Shown: positions 1 to 54,177 of the stretch, piece by piece
Numbering within the stretch: position 1 is the first letter of the stretch
How the letters are laid out: every line of letters begins with the position of its first letter
Assembly (NCBI GenBank): GCA_038087875.1
Contig: CM075988.1
Coordinates: 13,270,001 to 13,330,000, forward strand
Reading direction: 5' to 3'
Origin: Malacoraja senta
Taxonomy: Eukaryota
Length of the DNA stretch: 60,000 nt
Notes under the pieces: generated by a model
What the model was told of the DNA's origin: nothing
The model's input: only the letters and a program-made list of their open reading frames with translations
Databases searched by the model: none
Translations under genes and position numbers: made by a program

Positions 1-512
1 CTGCTTCTCGTTTCATTGATGCTGCCTGACCAGCATTTTCTCTCTTTATTTCTCAATCTGTAGTTTTTTAATCTTCATTTTCATCCTGCCAGCAATCACT
101 ACATCCCTTCATTTCGACAAGAGTTTCTTTGGGTGATTTATCAATCCTGTTTGTAAAGTTGCAGGCCTTCAAAGCACATGACAAAAAATTTTGGTGGTTT
201 CATTGTCTCCAGTCAAACATTCTACCACAGTAATTTGGGAGGTCTTCCAAAGTCCAGGCTAATACCTCTCCCTCGATAAGAAAAGCTAGCATCTAGTCAT
301 AAATTTCATTGAGCCATTTGGATTGGAATCATTGCTGTTTTACTAAATTACTCTTTAGTTCATCTTTGTGGGGGGAAATGCACTGGGATAAGTTTTGATC
401 TGCTATTCATAAATTCATAGATTCTAGGAGCAGAATTAGGCCATTCAGCCCACCAAGACTACACCACCATTCAATCATAGCTGATCTAACGTTCCCTCTC
501 AACCCCATTTTC

Positions 513-566
513 GAGGTGGAAGATTGCAACCTTCATGTGGTCCGCCCTGTTTCGCCGAATGCAATC
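513..566 (+). ncRNA. Minimal HDV-like self-cleaving ribozyme (predicted)
   Basis: P1 513-519/542-548 (G1.U wobble, one A-C mismatch); P2 GATTGCA 522-528/TGCAATC 560-566; P3 ACC 529-531/GGT 539-541; L3 TTCATGT; P1.1 C534-G549; J4/2 CGAA 556-559. Confidence 0.75.
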
Positions 567-647
567 AACCCGGCGTGCACAATCAAAGATCAAATAGAAC
601 AAGTTGTCCCACAACTTTAGGCTGTGCACGCCATACGCAAGAAGAAT
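513..647 (+). mobile_element. 135-bp non-autonomous retroposon (Vingi/Ingi-like tail) with ribozyme head
   Basis: Perfect 12-bp TSD AACCCCATTTTC (501-512, 648-659); 3' end GCCATACGCAAGAAGAA; no tRNA A/B boxes. Vingi assignment is recalled from tail similarity only. Confidence 0.8.
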
Positions 648-739
648 AACCCCATTTTCCTGCCTTCTCCCCCTATCACCCTTACTAGTCAAGAATCTGC
701 CTTTAAAATATCCATTGATTTGGCCTCTACAGCCATCTG

Positions 740-3934: not shown

Positions 3935-4620
3935 TTGAGATGAACACAAAGACAACTGGACAGCTACATGCTGAGTAGGATGTGGGCCATATGTGGGCAG
4001 GTGGGGCCAATGTAGATGGGGCATGTTTATTAGCATAGGGAAGGTGGGCACAAGGGTCTGTTTCCATACTGTTTGACTCTATGGTGAGGAGATTTAATGA
4101 ATATTGTCGGCAGTTATGGGCCCCATAACTGAGGAAGGATGTGCTGGCTTTGGAGAGAGTGCAGAGGTTGTTTATGAGAATGATCCCGGGGATGATTGGG
4201 GTTAACATACGAGGACCGTTTGTGGGCCTGTACTCACTGAGATTTAGAAGAAAGAGGAGGGATCTTATGTTGTCTACCAGACAACAAAAGCCCGAGAAAG
4301 AATAGAGGTGGAAAGGATGTTGCTAATAATGGGAGAGTCCAGAACCAGAGGGCACAGCCTCAGAATAAAAGGACATTCCTATAGAATGAAGGAATTTCTT
4401 TAGCCTGAGGGTAGTGAATATGTGGAATTCATTGCCACTGATGGCGGTGGAGGCCAAGATGTTGGGTATTTTTAGCATGGAAATTAACACGTTCTTGATT
4501 TATACGGGTGCCAAAGGTTATGGGGAGAAGGCAGGAGAATGGGGCTGAGAGAGAAAAACAGGTCAGCCATGATTGAATGGCGAGGTAGATTTGATGGGCT
4601 GAATGGCCTAATTCCGCCTC
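3935..4620 (+). mobile_element. Two degraded CR1 3' fragments
   Basis: Tail ...GGGTCTGTTTCCATACTGT; RT C-terminal remnant GAGGAAGGATGTGCTGGCTTTGGAGAGAGTGCAGAGG and tail GATTGAATGGCG...GGCTGAATGGCCTAATTC. Confidence 0.8.
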
Positions 4621-24584: not shown

Positions 24585-24900
24585 TAGAGGCAGAATTAGG
24601 CTATTCAGACCATCAAGTCTACTCCACCATTCAATCATGGCTGATCTATCTTTTTCTCTCAACCCCATTCTCATCCATTCTCACCATAACCCTTGATACC
24701 CTTACTAATTATTTTCCAATCTTTGCCTTTAAAATACCCAATGACTTGGCCTGCATAGCGTTCTGTGGAAATGAATTTCATTGATTCACCACTCGCTGAC
24801 TAAAGAAGTTCCTCCTCATCTCCTTTCGAAAGGTACGTCCATTTATTCTGATGCTATGCCCTGTGGTCCTAGACTCTCCGACAAGTGGAAACATCCTCTC
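24585..24900 (-). mobile_element. CR1 3' end
   Basis: GCAGAATTAGGCTATTCAG...ATTCACCACTCGCTGACTAAAGAAGTTCCTCCTCATCTC. Confidence 0.85.
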
Positions 24901-29532: not shown

Positions 29533-32351
29533 ACATAGAAACATAGAAATTAGGTGCAGGAGTAGGCCATTCGGCCCTTCGAGCCTGCACCGCCATTCAA
29601 TACGATCATGGCTGATCATCCAACTCAGTATCCCGTACCTGCCTTCTCTCCATACCCCCTGATCCCCTTAGCCACAAGGGCCACATCTAACTCCCTCTTA
29701 AATATAGCTAATGAACTGGCCTCGACTACCCTCTGTGGCAGAGAGTTCCAGAGATTCACCACTCTCTGTGTGAAAAAAGTTCTTCTCATCTCAGTTTTAA
29801 AGGATTTCCCCCTTATCCTTAAGCTGTGACCCCTTGTCCTGGACTTCCCCAACATCGGGAGCAATCTTCCTGCATCTAGCCTGTCCAACCCCTTAAGAAT
29901 TTTGTACGTTTCTATAAGATCCCCTCTCAATCTCCTAAATTCTAGAGAGTATAAACCAAGTCTATCCAGTCTTTCTTCATAAGACAGTCCTGACATCCCA
30001 GGAATCAGTCTGGTGAACCTTCTCTGCACTCCCTCTATGGCAATAATGTCCTTCCTCAGATTTGGAGACCAAAATTGTACGCAATACTCCAGGTGTGGTC
30101 TCACCAAGACCCTGTACAACTGCAGTAGAACCTCCCTGCTCCTATACTCAAATCCTTTTGCTATGAAAGCTAACATACCATTCGCTTTCTTCACTGCCTG
30201 CTGCACCTGCATGCCTACTTTCAATGACTGGTGTACCATGACACCCAGGTCTCGCTGCATCTCCCCTTTTCCTAGTCGGCCACCATTTAGATAATAGCCT
30301 GCTTTCCTGTTTTTGCCACCAAAATGGATAACCTCACATTTATCCACATTATACTGCATCTGCCAAACATTTGCCCACTCACCCAGCCTATCCAAGTCAC
30401 CTTGCAGTCTCCTAGCATCCTCCTCACAGCTAACACTGCCCCCCAGCTTAGTGTCATCTGCAAACTTGGAGATATTGCCTTCAATTCCCTCATCCAGATC
30501 ATTAATATATATTGTAAATAGCTGGGGTCCCAGCACTGAGCCTTGCGGTACCCCACTAGTCACTGCCTGCCATTGTGAAAAGGACCCGTTTACTCCTACT
30601 CTTTGCTTCCTGTTTGCCAGCCAGTTCTCTATCCACATCAATACTGAACCCCCAATGCCATGTGCTTTAAGTTTGTATACTAATCTCTTATGTGGGACCT
30701 TGTCGAAAGCCTTCTGGAAGTCCAGATACACCACATCCACTGGTTCTCCCCTATCCACGCTACTAATTACATCCTCGAAAAATTCTATAAGATTCGTCAG
30801 ACATGATTTACCTTTCGTAAATCCATGCTGACTTTGTCCAATGATTTCACCACTTTCCAAATGTGCTGCTATCCCATCTTTAATAACTGACTCTAGCAGT
30901 TTCCCCACTACCGATGTTAGACTAACTGGTCTGTAATTCCCCGTTGTCTCTCTCCCTCCCTTCTTAAAAAGTGGGGTTACGTTTGCTACCCGCCAATCCT
31001 CAGGAACTACTCCAGAATCTAAAGAGTTTTGAAAGATTATTACTAATGCATCCACTATTTCTGGAGCTACTTCCTTAAGTACTGGGATGCAGCCTATCTG
31101 GCCCTGGGGATTTATCGGACTTTAATCCATTCAATTTACCCAACACCACTTCCCGACTAACCTGGATTTCACTCAATTCCTCCAACTCCTTTGACCCGCG
31201 ATCCCCTGCTATTTCCGGCAGATTATTTATGTCTTCCTTAGTGAAGACGGAACCAAAGTAGTTATTCAATTGGTCCGCCATATCCTTGTTCCCCATGATC
31301 AACTCACCTGTTTCTGACTGCAAGGGACCTACATTTGTTTTAACTAATCTCTTTCTTTTCACATATCTATAAAAACTTTTGCAGTCAGTTTTTTTGTTCC
31401 CTGCCAGTTTTCTTTCATAATCTATTTTTCCTTTCCTAATTAAGCCCTTTGTCCTCCTCTGCTGGTCTCTGAATTTCTCCCAGTCCTCCGGTATGCTGCT
31501 TTTTCTGGCTAATTTGTACGCATCATCCTTCGCTTTGATACCATCCCTGATTTCCCTTGTTATCCACGGATGCACTACCTTCCCTGATTTATTCTTTTGC
31601 CAAACTGGGATGAACAATTTTTGTAGTTCATCCAAGCAGTCTTTAAATGTCTTCCATTGCATATCCACCGTCAACCCTTTTAGAATTAATTGCCAGTCAA
31701 TCTTGGCCAATTCACGTCTCATACCCTCAAAGTTACCTTTCTTTAAGTTCAGAACCATTGTTTCTGAATTAACAATGTCACTCTCCATCCTAATGAAGAA
31801 CTCAACCATATTATGGTCACTCTTGCCCAAGGGGGCACGTACATCAAGACTGCTAACTAACCCTTCCTCATTACTCAATACCCAGTCTAAAATAGCCTGC
31901 TCTCTCGTTGGTTCCTCTACATGTTGATTTAGATAACTATTCCGCATACATTCCAAGAAATCCTCTTCCTCAGCACCCCTGCCAATTTGATTCACCCAAT
32001 CTATATGTAGATTGAAGTCACCCATTATAACTGTTTTGCCTTTGTCGCACGCATTTCTAATTTCCTGTTTGATACCATCTCCAACTTCACTACTACTGTT
32101 AGGTGGCCTGTACCCAACACCCACCAGCGTTTTCTGTCCCTTAGTGTTTCGCAGCTCTACCCATACCGATTCCACATCCTCGAAACGAATGTCCTTCCTT
32201 TCCATTGCGTTAATCTCCTCTCTAATCAGCAACGCTACCCCACCTCCTTTTCCTTTCTCTCTATCCCTCCTGAATATTGAATAGCCCTGGATGTTCAGCT
32301 CCCAGCCTTGGTCACCCTGGAGCCATGTCTCCGTGATCCCAACTATATCAT
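29533..32351 (-). mobile_element. Young CR1 (HER1-like) LINE, 5'-truncated within the endonuclease domain
   Basis: (GTTTCTAT)n tail, 3' stem-loop region, about 2.7 kb of ORF2; probable TSD CTAGAA (29527-29532, 32356-32361). Confidence 0.97.
29625..32350 (-). pseudogene. CR1 ORF2: APE endonuclease + reverse transcriptase, single frameshift near 31082
   Basis: APE motifs DIVGITETW, YRPP, GDFN, LDWV, SDH; RT motifs [36 protein letters not shown]; apparent 2-bp loss in HPRVLKE joins the two ORFs. Confidence 0.95.
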
Positions 32352-32355
32352 TGCC

Positions 32356-32558
32356 CTAGAAGTCATTGCCTCAGAGGATATTTTTAAGGTAGAGATAGAT
32401 AGATTCTTGATTAGTATAGGTGTCAGACAGTATGGAGAAAAGGCAGGGGAATGGGGTTAGGAGGGAGAGATAGATCAGCTATGATTGAATGGCGGAGTAG
32501 ACTTGATGGGCTGATTGGCCTAATGCTACTCCTATTCCTTATGACCATATGACCTTAT
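32356..32558 (+). mobile_element. Older CR1 3' fragment (left part at 29498-29532), target of the young CR1
   Basis: GATGTTTTCCCTTGTGGGAGAGTCTAGGACTAGAA | GTCATTGCCTCAGA...GATTGAATGGCGGAGTAGAC...(TATGACC)2. Confidence 0.8.
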
Positions 32559-53564: not shown

Positions 53565-53692
53565 TTCATGTTCATAAGTTATTGTGAGCAGAATTAGGCC
53601 ATTCAGCCCATCAAGTCCACTCCACCATTTAATCATAACTGATCTATCTTTCCCTCTCAACCCCATTCCCTTGCCTTCTCCCCATGACCCCT
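53565..53692 (-). mobile_element. CR1 3' tail
   Basis: GAGCAGAATTAGGCCATTCAGCCCATCAAGTC...TGCCTTCTCCCC. Confidence 0.85.
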
Positions 53693-54177
53693 AGCACACA
53701 GAATTCAAACTTCATTAATGGATAACATTCAGAAAATAAATTCAATATTGCATGAAATGTGTGTTAAGACAGCATTGCATCAGTTTGATCCAGGGCTGCC
53801 AGGTTTGTGAGTTTTATGCGTACAGATTAAAATGTTGTGCCAGAAACTACACCCATGTTTCAACGACCCTAGAAAAACTTGACTTGCACTAAGGTCATCA
53901 TCATCATTGTGGAGTTTCCAGATTCCTTGGCACATTTGCAGAATTTGTACACAAATTAAACAACATGTATGCTTTAAAATCCCGATCTCATTCAGCCATT
54001 GATTTACTTCAGTGGTGTATGACATGTAGGGAGATGCTAGTGTAAAACTGCAACCATGTTAAGCCACATATCAAACAGGTTTTAGAGCCACAAACTCCAG
54101 CAAATCCCTGTTAAGGGCTTTGGTGATGCTGAACTGGCAGATTTTCCAGACCATGGGATGATATTCCTATTAATATT

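What the first reader, a model, noticed from the sequence alone, without database searches (positions are those of the whole stretch)
513..647. Ribozyme-headed mini-retroposon: minimal HDV-like ribozyme begins exactly at the 5' TSD
Seen: the 135-bp insert has a perfect 12-bp TSD, and its first 54 nt satisfy the full HDV nested double pseudoknot order. P1 has the G1.U wobble, P2 is a perfect 7 bp, P3 is ACC/GGT, L3 is TTCATGT (canonical TYCHCGY with one CpG-type change), P1.1 is a single C-G pair, P4 is reduced to about 6 nt, and the catalytic C lies in CGAA. Known: HDV-like ribozymes define the 5' ends of R2, RTE, L1Tc and ingi elements. Inference: this is a promoter-less SINE that cuts itself out of host transcripts and is mobilised by a Vingi/Ingi-like LINE. 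The predicted cleavage site matching the insertion boundary is independent support. I cannot tell whether it is already described in elasmobranchs. This copy has two likely inactivating changes (A514, T536).
Basis: partly seen in the sequence, partly recalled or inferred. Interest (0 to 1): 0.92.

Follow-up and report, generated by a model that had tools for sequence, protein, structure and literature searches.

The report
Ribozyme-headed mini-retroposon and its LINE
The 135-base insert is one decayed copy of a very abundant short mobile element whose first 54 bases look like a stripped-down self-cutting (HDV-like) RNA, and a 3-kb jumping gene in the same genome carries a fuller version of the same RNA at its own start.

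Summary
Window 513-647 is a 135-bp insert between perfect 12-bp duplications, and four uninterrupted paralogues of the host repeat in the window carry that 12-mer once. It belongs to a family of at least 3,831 copies in this genome.

Family features:
- (AAG)n tails, 7-15-bp duplications and 5'-truncated copies.
- 5' ends clustered on G1: 46 of 71 exactly, 18 more within 3 nt.

Ribozyme evidence:
- A generic HDV-like descriptor hits only these heads in 357 kb and nothing in 8.6 Mb of shuffles.
- I found the likely partner, an abundant LINE of about 3.1 kb encoding an endonuclease and a reverse transcriptase.
- This LINE and its internally deleted derivative start with a P4-bearing HDV-like ribozyme (Rfam RF02682, 32.8 bits, E 5e-5; below the gathering score).
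- They end in the same 13 nt plus (AAG)n as the insert.
- The two heads differ by six two-sided compensatory pair changes and no broken pair.

Limits: cleavage is untested, the P4-less head scores only 14.4 bits in Rfam, and there is no covariation within the family. A Vingi/Ingi partner is not supported. This is a new variant of a known kind.

The parts
501..512 (+). 5' target-site duplication AACCCCATTTTC
   Evidence: Identical to 648-659. Paralogous host-repeat copies in the window carry it once.
513..519 (+). P1 5' strand; the predicted cleavage site is immediately 5' of G513
   Evidence: Pairs with 542-548. In the family the pairs are G1.T36 in 65 of 71 copies and G2-C35 in 62 of 71. The window copy has A514. 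46 of 71 copies start exactly here by TSD mapping.
522..528 (+). P2 5' strand (GATTGCA)
   Evidence: Seven perfect pairs with 560-566. Each pair is kept in 68-70 of 71 copies. Four of the seven pairs differ on both sides in the LINE-type head and still pair.
529..541 (+). P3 (ACC/GGT) enclosing L3 (TTCATGT here, TTCACGT in the family majority)
   Evidence: L3 is TTCACGT in 39 and TTCATGT in 19 of 71 copies. P3 is identical in the LINE-type head. Rfam RF02682 aligns this block to its P3/L3.
542..549 (+). P1 3' strand (CCGCCCT) followed by G549, the proposed one-pair P1.1 partner of C534
   Evidence: C22-G37 is present in 69 of 71 insert-type copies and 10 of 10 LINE-type copies.
550..555 (+). 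Six-nucleotide linker in place of P4 (TTTCGC here, TTTCGA in the family)
   Evidence: A at the last position in 67 of 71 copies. The LINE-type head has a 5-bp P4 hairpin here. No P4-bearing version of the insert-type head exists in the genome at up to 1 mismatch.
556..559 (+). J4/2: candidate catalytic C556, then GAA
   Evidence: C in 68 of 71 copies. CGAA in 58 of 71 and CTAA in 4. G>T at 557 makes up 16-42% of contig depth in four runs.
560..566 (+). P2 3' strand (TGCAATC); end of the 54-nt head
   Evidence: The RF02682 alignment ends here in the consensus-like copy L025.
572..632 (+). Body hairpin: GGCGTGCAC (572-580) pairs with GTGCACGCC (624-632), with an inner AAGTTGT/ACAACTT stem
   Evidence: The equivalent 81 nt of L025 fold to -25.3 kcal/mol, z = -4.3, with 0 of 200 shuffles as stable. 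No similarity to the LINE.
632..647 (+). 3' terminus CATACGCAAGAAG, shared with the LINE, then a short degenerate (AAG)n tail (AAT here)
   Evidence: 13 of 13 identical to the 3' ends of L103 and L104. Tail length varies among copies.
648..659 (+). 3' target-site duplication AACCCCATTTTC

Best explanation
Window 513-647 is a dead copy of a non-autonomous retroposon about 138 nt long.

**Parts of the element.**
- A 54-nt minimal HDV-like ribozyme with no P4.
- A stable hairpin of about 60 nt, of unrelated origin.
- The last 13 nt and the (AAG)n tail of an abundant LINE of about 3.1 kb that encodes an endonuclease and a reverse transcriptase.

**Proposed cycle.**
1. A source copy lying in any transcribed region is read through by a host polymerase.
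2. The head folds into the nested double pseudoknot and cuts immediately 5' of G1. This step is inferred.
3. The freed RNA therefore starts at G1 whatever lies upstream.
4. The LINE protein recognises the shared 3' terminus and tail, nicks a target, and copies the RNA by target-primed reverse transcription. This step is inferred from the hallmarks.
5. The result is 7-15-bp duplications, variable tails, occasional 5' truncation and 0-3 extra 5' nucleotides.

The LINE and its internally deleted derivative use a fuller, P4-bearing version of the same ribozyme. After insertion, copies decay neutrally.

**Shown:** family membership, boundaries, insertion hallmarks, homology of the two heads, compensatory differences between them, and the shared 3' end.

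**Inferred:** catalysis by the P4-less head, read-through transcription, and use of this particular LINE's protein.
For: **Family and insertion hallmarks.**
- The own-genome DNA search gave 1,403 first-look candidates. All 40 that were scored match at 94-100%.
- Exact 35-mer counts are 3,357 + 426 + 39 + 9, with 0 for the reversed control.
- 70 of 71 distinct full copies have a flanking repeat of at least 7 bp.
- 5'-truncated copies with their own duplications exist: L095, L096, L100.

**5' end.** The offset from the duplication to G1 is 0 or less in 46 of 71 copies, +1 in 12, +2 or +3 in 6, 4 or more in 6, and none found in 1. Contigs of four coded organisms lose likeness just before the element. 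Their loose ends at 515 end in GG with 0.39 agreement upstream, and at 646 they run into GAAGAAG.

**Majority sequence.** It gives G2 and L3 TTCACGT.

**Descriptor.** There is 1 hit in the window. There are 61 hits in 297,779 bases of loci: 55 insert-type, 6 LINE-type and 0 others. Shuffles give 0 hits in 8.57 M strand-bases.

**Fold.** The minimum-energy fold of a consensus-like head is exactly P1+P3, at -12.4 kcal/mol.

**Rfam.**
- Of 4,227 families the top hit on L025 is RF02682, an HDV-like ribozyme. It scores 14.4 bits, E 1.5, full model, aligned from G1 to the end of P2'.
- The LINE-type head in L112 hits RF02682 at 32.8 bits (E 5.1e-5), RF00094 at 24.1 bits and RF01787 at 12.1 bits, starting at the first base after the flank.
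- L104 hits RF02682 at 24.7 bits, E 0.0085.

**Partner LINE.**
- In L105 the ribozyme is followed by an endonuclease (PF14529, PF03372) and RVT_1.
- L103 shows the ORF end, 28 nt of 3' UTR and the tail.
- The protein search gave 2,481 first-look candidates.
- The head pattern has 508 matches and 0 controls.

**Between-head comparison.** Six pairs changed on both sides and still pair: 6-31, 7-30, 11-53, 13-51, 14-50 and 16-48. One pair changed on one side (5-32). No pair is broken. P3, C22, the CGT of L3, G37 and CGAA are kept.

**P4.** Minimal HDV-like ribozymes are described as lacking P4 (preprint 10.1101/2023.06.13.544163, passages read).
Against: - No cleavage assay and no RNA 5'-end data.
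- The insert-type head is far below Rfam's gathering score: 14.4 against 44 bits, E 1.5. The window copy gives no Rfam match at all. The LINE-type head also stays below gathering, 32.8 against 44.
- Within the family there is no sign of selection on pairing. At pair 6-31, A6 copies carry T31 no more often than G6 copies do: 9 of 48 against 426 of 3,783, Fisher p = 0.11. This is what neutral decay predicts, but it adds no support.
- A at position 2, next to the cleavage site, recurs in 7 of the 27 best matches to the window copy, each with its own flanks. If that is a subfamily, its source propagated with an A/C mismatch. The same state is absent from the 44 copies sampled in other ways.
- 24 of 71 copies carry extra 5' nucleotides between the duplication and G1.
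- The covariation rests on two lineages only.
- The link to the LINE rests on 13 shared nucleotides, the tail and the homologous head. The body has no LINE counterpart, and the LINE 3' end shows no special fold (z = 0.49).
Confidence: 0.7

Rival explanations
1. The head is a relic, not an enzyme. The element arose from a LINE 5' end, lost P4 and with it catalysis. It kept spreading because one or a few source genes happened to start transcription at G1, or because processing is done in trans.
For: The P4-less head scores poorly in Rfam. There is no within-family covariation. A at position 2 recurs among related copies. No experimental data exist.
Against: All core letters and all 17 helix pairs are intact in the majority sequence of a family of several thousand copies. 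P1 and P2 were remodelled compensatorily relative to the LINE head rather than left to decay. P1+P3 is the minimum-energy fold. A fixed start at G1 without an internal promoter would have to be re-created at each new source copy. P4-less HDV-like ribozymes are described as a natural class.
Confidence: 0.2
2. It is an ordinary Pol III SINE whose internal promoter fixes the 5' end, and the ribozyme-like layout is incidental.
For: Precise 5' ends are also typical of Pol III SINEs. By eye, TTTCGACG resembles the core of a box B and TGGAAGATTGC weakly resembles a box A, about 6 of 9 specified letters each. The box motifs are recalled and were not tested statistically.
Against: ARAGORN finds no tRNA-like gene in L025 1400-1750. 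Rfam shows no tRNA, 5S or 7SL match at E up to 10. The 3-kb protein-coding LINE has the homologous head starting at the same G1. The descriptor has zero background hits.
Confidence: 0.06
3. The resemblance is chance: a repeat head that happens to fit a drawn pseudoknot.
For: Earlier notes of this scan on other genomes found such claims to be chance.
Against: The descriptor gives 0 hits in 8.57 M shuffled strand-bases and 0 hits outside the two families in 357 kb. HDV-family models are the top Rfam hits, with E 5e-5 for the sister head. There are six compensatory pair differences between the heads.
Confidence: 0.02

Closest known systems
R2 SIDEs (short internally deleted elements) of Drosophila, Eickbush and Eickbush 2012, PMC3414825 (abstract read)
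   Same: Non-autonomous elements made of a 5' HDV-like ribozyme joined to the 3' end of a LINE, spread by the LINE's target-primed reverse transcription. The 204-bp element in L104 is exactly this kind: about 175 nt of LINE 5' end plus 29 nt of LINE 3' end.
   Different: R2 and its SIDEs insert only in 28S rDNA and are rare. Here insertion is dispersed, with 7-15-bp duplications and thousands of copies. The window's family is not a simple internal deletion: its head is remodelled and lacks P4, its body is foreign, and only 13 nt plus the tail are shared with the LINE.
L1Tc / NARTc and related trypanosomatid elements sharing the Pr77 HDV-like ribozyme (PMC3383444, PMC4035085; abstracts seen in the listing)
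   Same: A LINE and its short non-autonomous partner share a ribozyme at the first nucleotides, and insertion is dispersed.
   Different: Pr77 is also an internal promoter. L1Tc encodes RNase H and a DNA-binding domain (review PMC6765202, passage). The host is a protist. No promoter role is shown here.
HDV-like ribozymes at the 5' ends of RTE and Baggins retrotransposons (Ruminski et al. 2011, known to me only through the review PMC6765202, passages; the paper itself is not held)
   Same: Promoter-less LINEs freed from read-through transcripts by a 5' HDV-like ribozyme. The partner LINE here has RTE-like size and domain order and a short 3' UTR with a simple-repeat tail.
   Different: Clade membership of this LINE is not tested. 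I could not check whether that paper lists vertebrate or cartilaginous-fish examples or P4-less forms.
Minimal (P4-less) HDV-like ribozymes from metagenomes and theta ribozymes of gut phages (preprint 10.1101/2023.06.13.544163, passages read)
   Same: The same reduced architecture without the P4 domain.
   Different: Those come from metagenomes and phages, next to tRNAs. This one heads a retroposon in an animal genome, and its activity is unknown.
CPEB3 ribozyme of mammals (recalled, not tested)
   Same: As I recall, its L3 and J4/2 letters and strand lengths are very close to the insert-type head.
   Different: It has a P4 and is a single conserved intronic locus. The Rfam CPEB3 family gave no match at E up to 10, so no membership is claimed.

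Membership tests
HDV-like (delta-like) self-cleaving ribozymes | Nested double-pseudoknot strand order P1-P2-P3-L3-P3'-P1'-P1.1-(P4)-J4/2-P2' | tested here: met
   The generic descriptor hits 513-566 and 55 other insert-type heads. It gives 0 background hits in 357 kb and 0 in 8.57 M shuffled strand-bases.
HDV-like (delta-like) self-cleaving ribozymes | G.U wobble closing P1 at the cleavage site, with the element starting at that G | tested here: met
   G1.T36 in 65 of 71 copies. 5' ends lie at G1 in 46 of 71 and within 3 nt in 64 of 71.
HDV-like (delta-like) self-cleaving ribozymes | Conserved C in J4/2 directly before P2' | tested here: met
   C at position 44 in 68 of 71 copies. CGAA in 58 of 71 and CTAA in 4. 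This shows presence only; a catalytic role is not shown.
HDV-like (delta-like) self-cleaving ribozymes | P4 helix | tested here: not met
   A six-nucleotide linker stands in its place. The LINE-type head has a 5-bp P4 in 10 of 10 copies. P4 is absent from the described 'minimal' class, so this rules out the canonical form, not the minimal one.
HDV-like (delta-like) self-cleaving ribozymes | Score at or above the gathering threshold of an Rfam HDV-family model | tested here: not met
   Insert-type: RF02682 at 14.4 against 44 bits. The window copy gives no match. LINE-type: 32.8 against 44 bits, E 5.1e-5.
HDV-like (delta-like) self-cleaving ribozymes | Site-specific self-cleavage that depends on a divalent metal and the J4/2 cytosine | not testable with these tools
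   Needs a bench assay.
LINE-dependent non-autonomous retroposons (SINE in the broad sense; SIDE-like) | Hallmarks of target-primed reverse transcription: duplications, variable 3' repeat tail, 5' truncation, no coding capacity | tested here: met
.
LINE-dependent non-autonomous retroposons (SINE in the broad sense; SIDE-like) | 3' end shared with an autonomous LINE of the same genome | tested here: met
   CATACGCAAGAAG plus (AAG)n is identical in L103 (LINE 3' end), L104 and the insert family. Only 13 nt are shared.
SIDE in the strict sense (internal deletion of the LINE) | Both ends co-linear with the LINE | tested here: not met
   The insert's head is homologous but remodelled: by my count from the printed alignment, 26 of the first 37 positions are identical. 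The body is unrelated. The L104-type element does meet this feature.
Pol III (tRNA-, 7SL- or 5S-derived) SINEs | Head derived from a Pol III gene with an internal promoter | tested here: not met
   ARAGORN finds none. Rfam shows none at E up to 10.
RTE-clade LINEs (for the partner) | About 3.2 kb, endonuclease plus reverse transcriptase in one protein, very short 3' UTR ending in a simple repeat (features recalled) | tested here: inconclusive
   The domains and their order fit. Relatives are 970-1,050 aa on 3.1-3.6-kb contigs without RNase H. In L105 itself the frame is broken, so a single ORF is inferred from those relatives. The 3' UTR is 28 nt. No phylogeny against named references was made.
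   No reference sequences were at hand. The only hint is that RNase H (PF00075) appears only in distant hits at E about 1e-18 to 1e-22.

The most novel reading that the evidence does not exclude
The P4-less head is a fully active ribozyme, the first natural minimal HDV-like ribozyme tied to a eukaryotic host and function. Roughly a quarter of copies keep every helix and core letter (20 of 71 sampled), so some thousands of cleavage-competent sites would sit inside this animal's introns and UTRs. They would cut host transcripts and offer raw material for domesticated ribozymes of the CPEB3 kind.
Probability: 0.4. Interest if true: 0.75.

Novelty: new variant of a known kind. Interest (0 to 1): 0.6.

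Why it matters
Ribozyme-terminated LINEs and their short parasites are known from insects, trypanosomes and a few other animals. A review already notes that some SINEs use HDV-like ribozymes (PMC6765202).

What this adds:
- A vertebrate-type genome in which a LINE, its internal-deletion derivative and a third, chimeric element all rely on the same ribozyme family.
- The most successful of the three, with thousands of copies, carries a naturally minimised P4-less form.

This gives a matched natural pair, with and without P4 and with helices that covary, for asking what P4 contributes. It also gives a eukaryotic home for 'minimal' HDV-like ribozymes, whose origin was described as open. And it provides a large set of potential self-cleavage sites in host transcripts.

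My searches of the held library found no paper linking HDV-like ribozymes to cartilaginous-fish repeats. One search listed 5 papers, none on this by title or abstract. In one search none of the 10 listed papers holds the ribozyme term. The key survey papers could not be read, so prior description cannot be excluded.

Tried and rejected
- **LINE with the insert's own ribozyme 3' part but a different downstream sequence.** 33 matches. The listed 33-mers look like insert copies with indels or truncations. I read 6 in full (L032, L035, L038, L042, L046, L058). The script stopped at L050.
- **LINE sharing the insert's last 25 nt.** 84 matches. By their listed letters and the 20 I read in full, they are insert variants, 5'-truncated copies, two chimeras and copies carrying a TIR element. 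No LINE.
- **L035/L061.** The reverse transcriptase beside the insert fragment is a CR1-like LINE with a TTCTATG-repeat tail that landed inside an insert copy. It is not the partner.
- **Compensatory subfamily at pair 6-31.** The 10 A6/T31 copies looked like one. The full 2x2 table shows no linkage, p = 0.11. One search (pair 7-30) gave only 3 single copies.
- **A P4-bearing version of the insert-type head.** 34 matches, all apparently deletion variants by their listed letters.
- **RNA evidence.** No RNA holder is listed. The four runs laid are contigs, which cannot show RNA starts.
- **LINE 3' end structure.** None (z = 0.49), so no shared 3' hairpin can be claimed.
- **Clade name from database names.** None of the 120 listed names gives a clade.
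- **Earlier notes of this scan.** Nothing on this genome or this sequence.
- **Papers.** Ruminski 2011 and Webb 2009 are not held.
- **Full-length LINE copies.** The two places where the ribozyme lies about 2.3 kb upstream of the ORF end (C2877 and C1432) share the upstream flank of L105. They are one duplicated locus, not independent insertions.

Full report
**Observation.** Window 513-647 is a 135-bp stretch between two perfect copies of AACCCCATTTTC, at 501-512 and 648-659. A 12-bp repeat at that spacing is not rare by chance in 60 kb; my arithmetic gives about 0.5 expected. But the insert sits inside another repeat. Four paralogues of that repeat in the same window run through the site with the 12-mer present once. 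So this is a true target-site duplication. I wrote a generic HDV-like descriptor without family-specific letters. It finds one site in both strands of the window, 513-566, and none in 8,572,296 strand-bases of dinucleotide-shuffled sequence.

**The family.**
- A DNA search of the window's own 1.94-Gb assembly gave 1,403 first-look candidates. All 40 that were scored match at 94-100%.
- Exhaustive pattern counts for a 35-nt stretch of the head give 3,357, 426, 39 and 9 copies for the four states of pair 6-31, with 0 for the reversed control. That makes at least 3,831 copies. Allowing for decay, I estimate the true number to be near 10^4.
- In 71 distinct full-length copies taken from three samples, 70 have a flanking direct repeat of at least 7 bp. 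These samples were each chosen by a search and are not random.
- The element starts exactly at G1 (offset 0, or ambiguous through G microhomology) in 46 copies. It has one extra base in 12, two or three in 6, and four or more in 6, some of which are doubtful.
- Tails are (AAG)n of variable length. 5'-truncated copies with their own duplications exist (L095, L096, L100).
- Upstream flanks are unrelated in all copies.
- Logan contigs of four coded organisms hold the element with the same limits. Likeness is lost just before the head, with heterogeneous upstream letters, and the 3' side runs into GAAGAAG.

- G at 514 is the majority: 63 of 71 copies. A occurs in 7, all among the 27 copies picked for likeness to the window copy, and in 0 of the other 44.
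- C at 536 is the majority: 48 of 71. T occurs in 20 and is a CpG decay product.
- The window copy also has C555 where 67 of 71 have A, and it lacks 3 bp.
- Its predicted minimum-energy fold is no longer the ribozyme's. For a consensus-like copy the minimum-energy fold is exactly P1 plus P3, at -12.4 kcal/mol.

**Is the head an HDV-like ribozyme?**
- The window copy gives no Rfam match at E up to 10.
- On the consensus-like copy L025, the best of 4,227 families is RF02682, an HDV-like ribozyme. It is aligned end to end from G1 to the last base of P2', with P4 deleted. It scores only 14.4 bits against a gathering score of 44, E 1.5.
- In 297,779 bases of fetched loci the descriptor hits 55 insert-type heads, 6 heads of a second type and nothing else.
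- No tRNA-like or other known RNA is detected.

**The partner.** Searches for a LINE carrying the insert's own head or its last 25 nt found only insert variants.
- A search anchored on the last 17 nt brought up a recurrent different upstream sequence.
- Locus L103 shows this to be the end of a reverse-transcriptase ORF, a 28-nt 3' UTR and the same CATACGCAAGAAG(AAG)n terminus.
- The LINE is abundant: 2,481 first-look candidates, of which 150 were scored at 75-99% amino-acid identity.
- A near-complete copy (L105) reads: ribozyme-like head, then an endonuclease (PF14529, PF03372), then a reverse transcriptase (PF00078). The frame is broken in this copy, and its 3' part is interrupted by a CR1-like insertion.
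- Adding the pieces gives about 3.1 kb.
- Related proteins elsewhere are 970-1,050 aa with the same two domains, on contigs of 3.1-3.6 kb. RNase H appears only in distant hits.
- That architecture is RTE-like as I recall the clade. No phylogeny was made, and nothing supports Vingi/Ingi.

**A second non-autonomous element.** L104 (204 bp, with a 13-bp duplication read by eye) is a plain internal deletion of this LINE: about 175 nt of 5' end joined to 29 nt of 3' end.

**The LINE-type head.**
- It has 508 pattern matches and 0 controls.
- It has every helix, including a 5-bp P4.
- It hits RF02682 at 32.8 bits (E 5.1e-5), RF00094 at 24.1 bits and RF01787 at 12.1 bits in L112. The alignment starts at the first base after the flank. 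In L104 it scores 24.7 bits, E 0.0085. These are significant but below the gathering scores.
- Nine copies with nine different upstream flanks begin at its G1.

**Comparison of the two heads.** They are clearly homologous. GGGG, ACC, C22, CGT, GGT, GCCCTG, G37 and CGAA lie at the same positions. They differ in the helices:
- Pairs 6-31 and 7-30 of P1 are changed on both sides and still pair.
- Pairs 11-53, 13-51, 14-50 and 16-48 of P2 are changed on both sides and still pair.
- Pair 5-32 goes from T.G to C-G.
- No pair is broken.

This is the covariation the fold predicts, though it rests on two lineages.

**Within the insert family I found none.** The apparent A6/T31 subfamily dissolves in the full table: 9 of 48 against 426 of 3,783, Fisher p = 0.11. 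That is what neutral decay after insertion predicts. No P4-bearing version of the insert-type head exists, so the P4-less form is the form that spread.

**The rest of the insert.** Positions 55-135 fold into a long hairpin (-25.3 kcal/mol, z = -4.3, 0 of 200 shuffles as stable). This part has no similarity to the LINE, and the LINE's own 3' end is unstructured. Only the last 13 nt and the tail are shared.

**Mechanism and rivals.**
- Best reading, about 0.7: a promoter-less chimeric retroposon cuts itself out of read-through transcripts at G1 with a minimal HDV-like ribozyme, and this LINE copies it by way of the shared terminus and tail.
- Main rival, about 0.2: the P4-less head no longer cleaves, and the 5' end is set in another way.
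- A Pol III SINE (0.06) and pure chance (0.02) are poorly supported.

**What is known.** Ribozyme-headed LINEs (R2, L1Tc, RTE, Baggins) and their short derivatives (R2 SIDEs, NARTc) are established. Minimal P4-less HDV-like ribozymes are known from metagenomes and phages, and their origin was described as open. The L104-type element is a straightforward new member of the SIDE kind. The window's family is a new variant: dispersed, very abundant, chimeric, and headed by a natural P4-less form in an animal genome. I did not test which animal this is. Earlier notes of this scan on other genomes warned that ribozyme-like repeat heads are often chance. That prompted the shuffle and background controls, which this case passes.

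Noticed in passing
L076, L079, L102 (element interior); several more places in the list: A TIR-bounded element of about 250-330 bp, with ends GGGCCTGTCCCAC... and their reverse complement, sits inside insert copies at the same TTA just before GGCTGTGCAC. It occurs in either internal orientation and with different interiors. About 20 of the 84 matches show its end (AGGCCC or AGGGC before TTTAGG). It may be a site-preferring MITE, or a composite subfamily that kept retrotransposing.
   Followed up: partly
L092 (C18:2007600-2008300) and L093 (C5145:300500-301200): The last 25 nt or so of the insert, plus its tail, are fused directly to the 3' parts of other repeats. These look like template-switch chimeras made during reverse transcription.
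   Followed up: no
L035 / L061 (C1:287755300-287763300): An insert copy is split by a 5'-truncated CR1-like LINE ending in TTCTATG repeats. The insert resumes after it.
   Followed up: yes
window 405-512 and 648-760; also about 24590-24768, 53571-53693, 32401-32534 and 4519-4617: The host of the insert is itself a dispersed repeat. It has at least four more copies in the window at 70-92% identity by piece.
   Followed up: partly
window 31168-31477 (minus strand): 310 bp here are 96.8% identical to the CR1-like LINE fragment that interrupts L105. This is a young CR1-like family unrelated to the finding.
   Followed up: no
many small contigs (C96, C208, C253, C529, C617, C618, C796): The string AATAACAGGATCCATACATAAGAAGAAG recurs identically at least 14 times on small contigs, several times per contig tens of kilobases apart. 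It may be a large tandem or segmental repeat ending in a similar tail.
   Followed up: no
L105, L114, L115 (C2310, C2877, C1432): Three near-full-length LINE copies on different small contigs share the same upstream flank (...TATATAACACAT). They are copies of one duplicated locus, not separate insertions.
   Followed up: yes
P0092: A 970-aa protein with endonuclease and reverse transcriptase domains, 39% identical to the LINE, is filed under a cyanobacterial assembly (Moorena sp.) on a 3,467-nt contig. This is probably animal DNA in that assembly.
   Followed up: no
window 557 (position 45 of the head): G>T at this J4/2 position makes up 16-42% of contig depth in four runs. It is not a CpG decay product. 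CUAA is therefore a widespread variant of the family. RF02682's consensus also reads CUAA there.
   Followed up: partly
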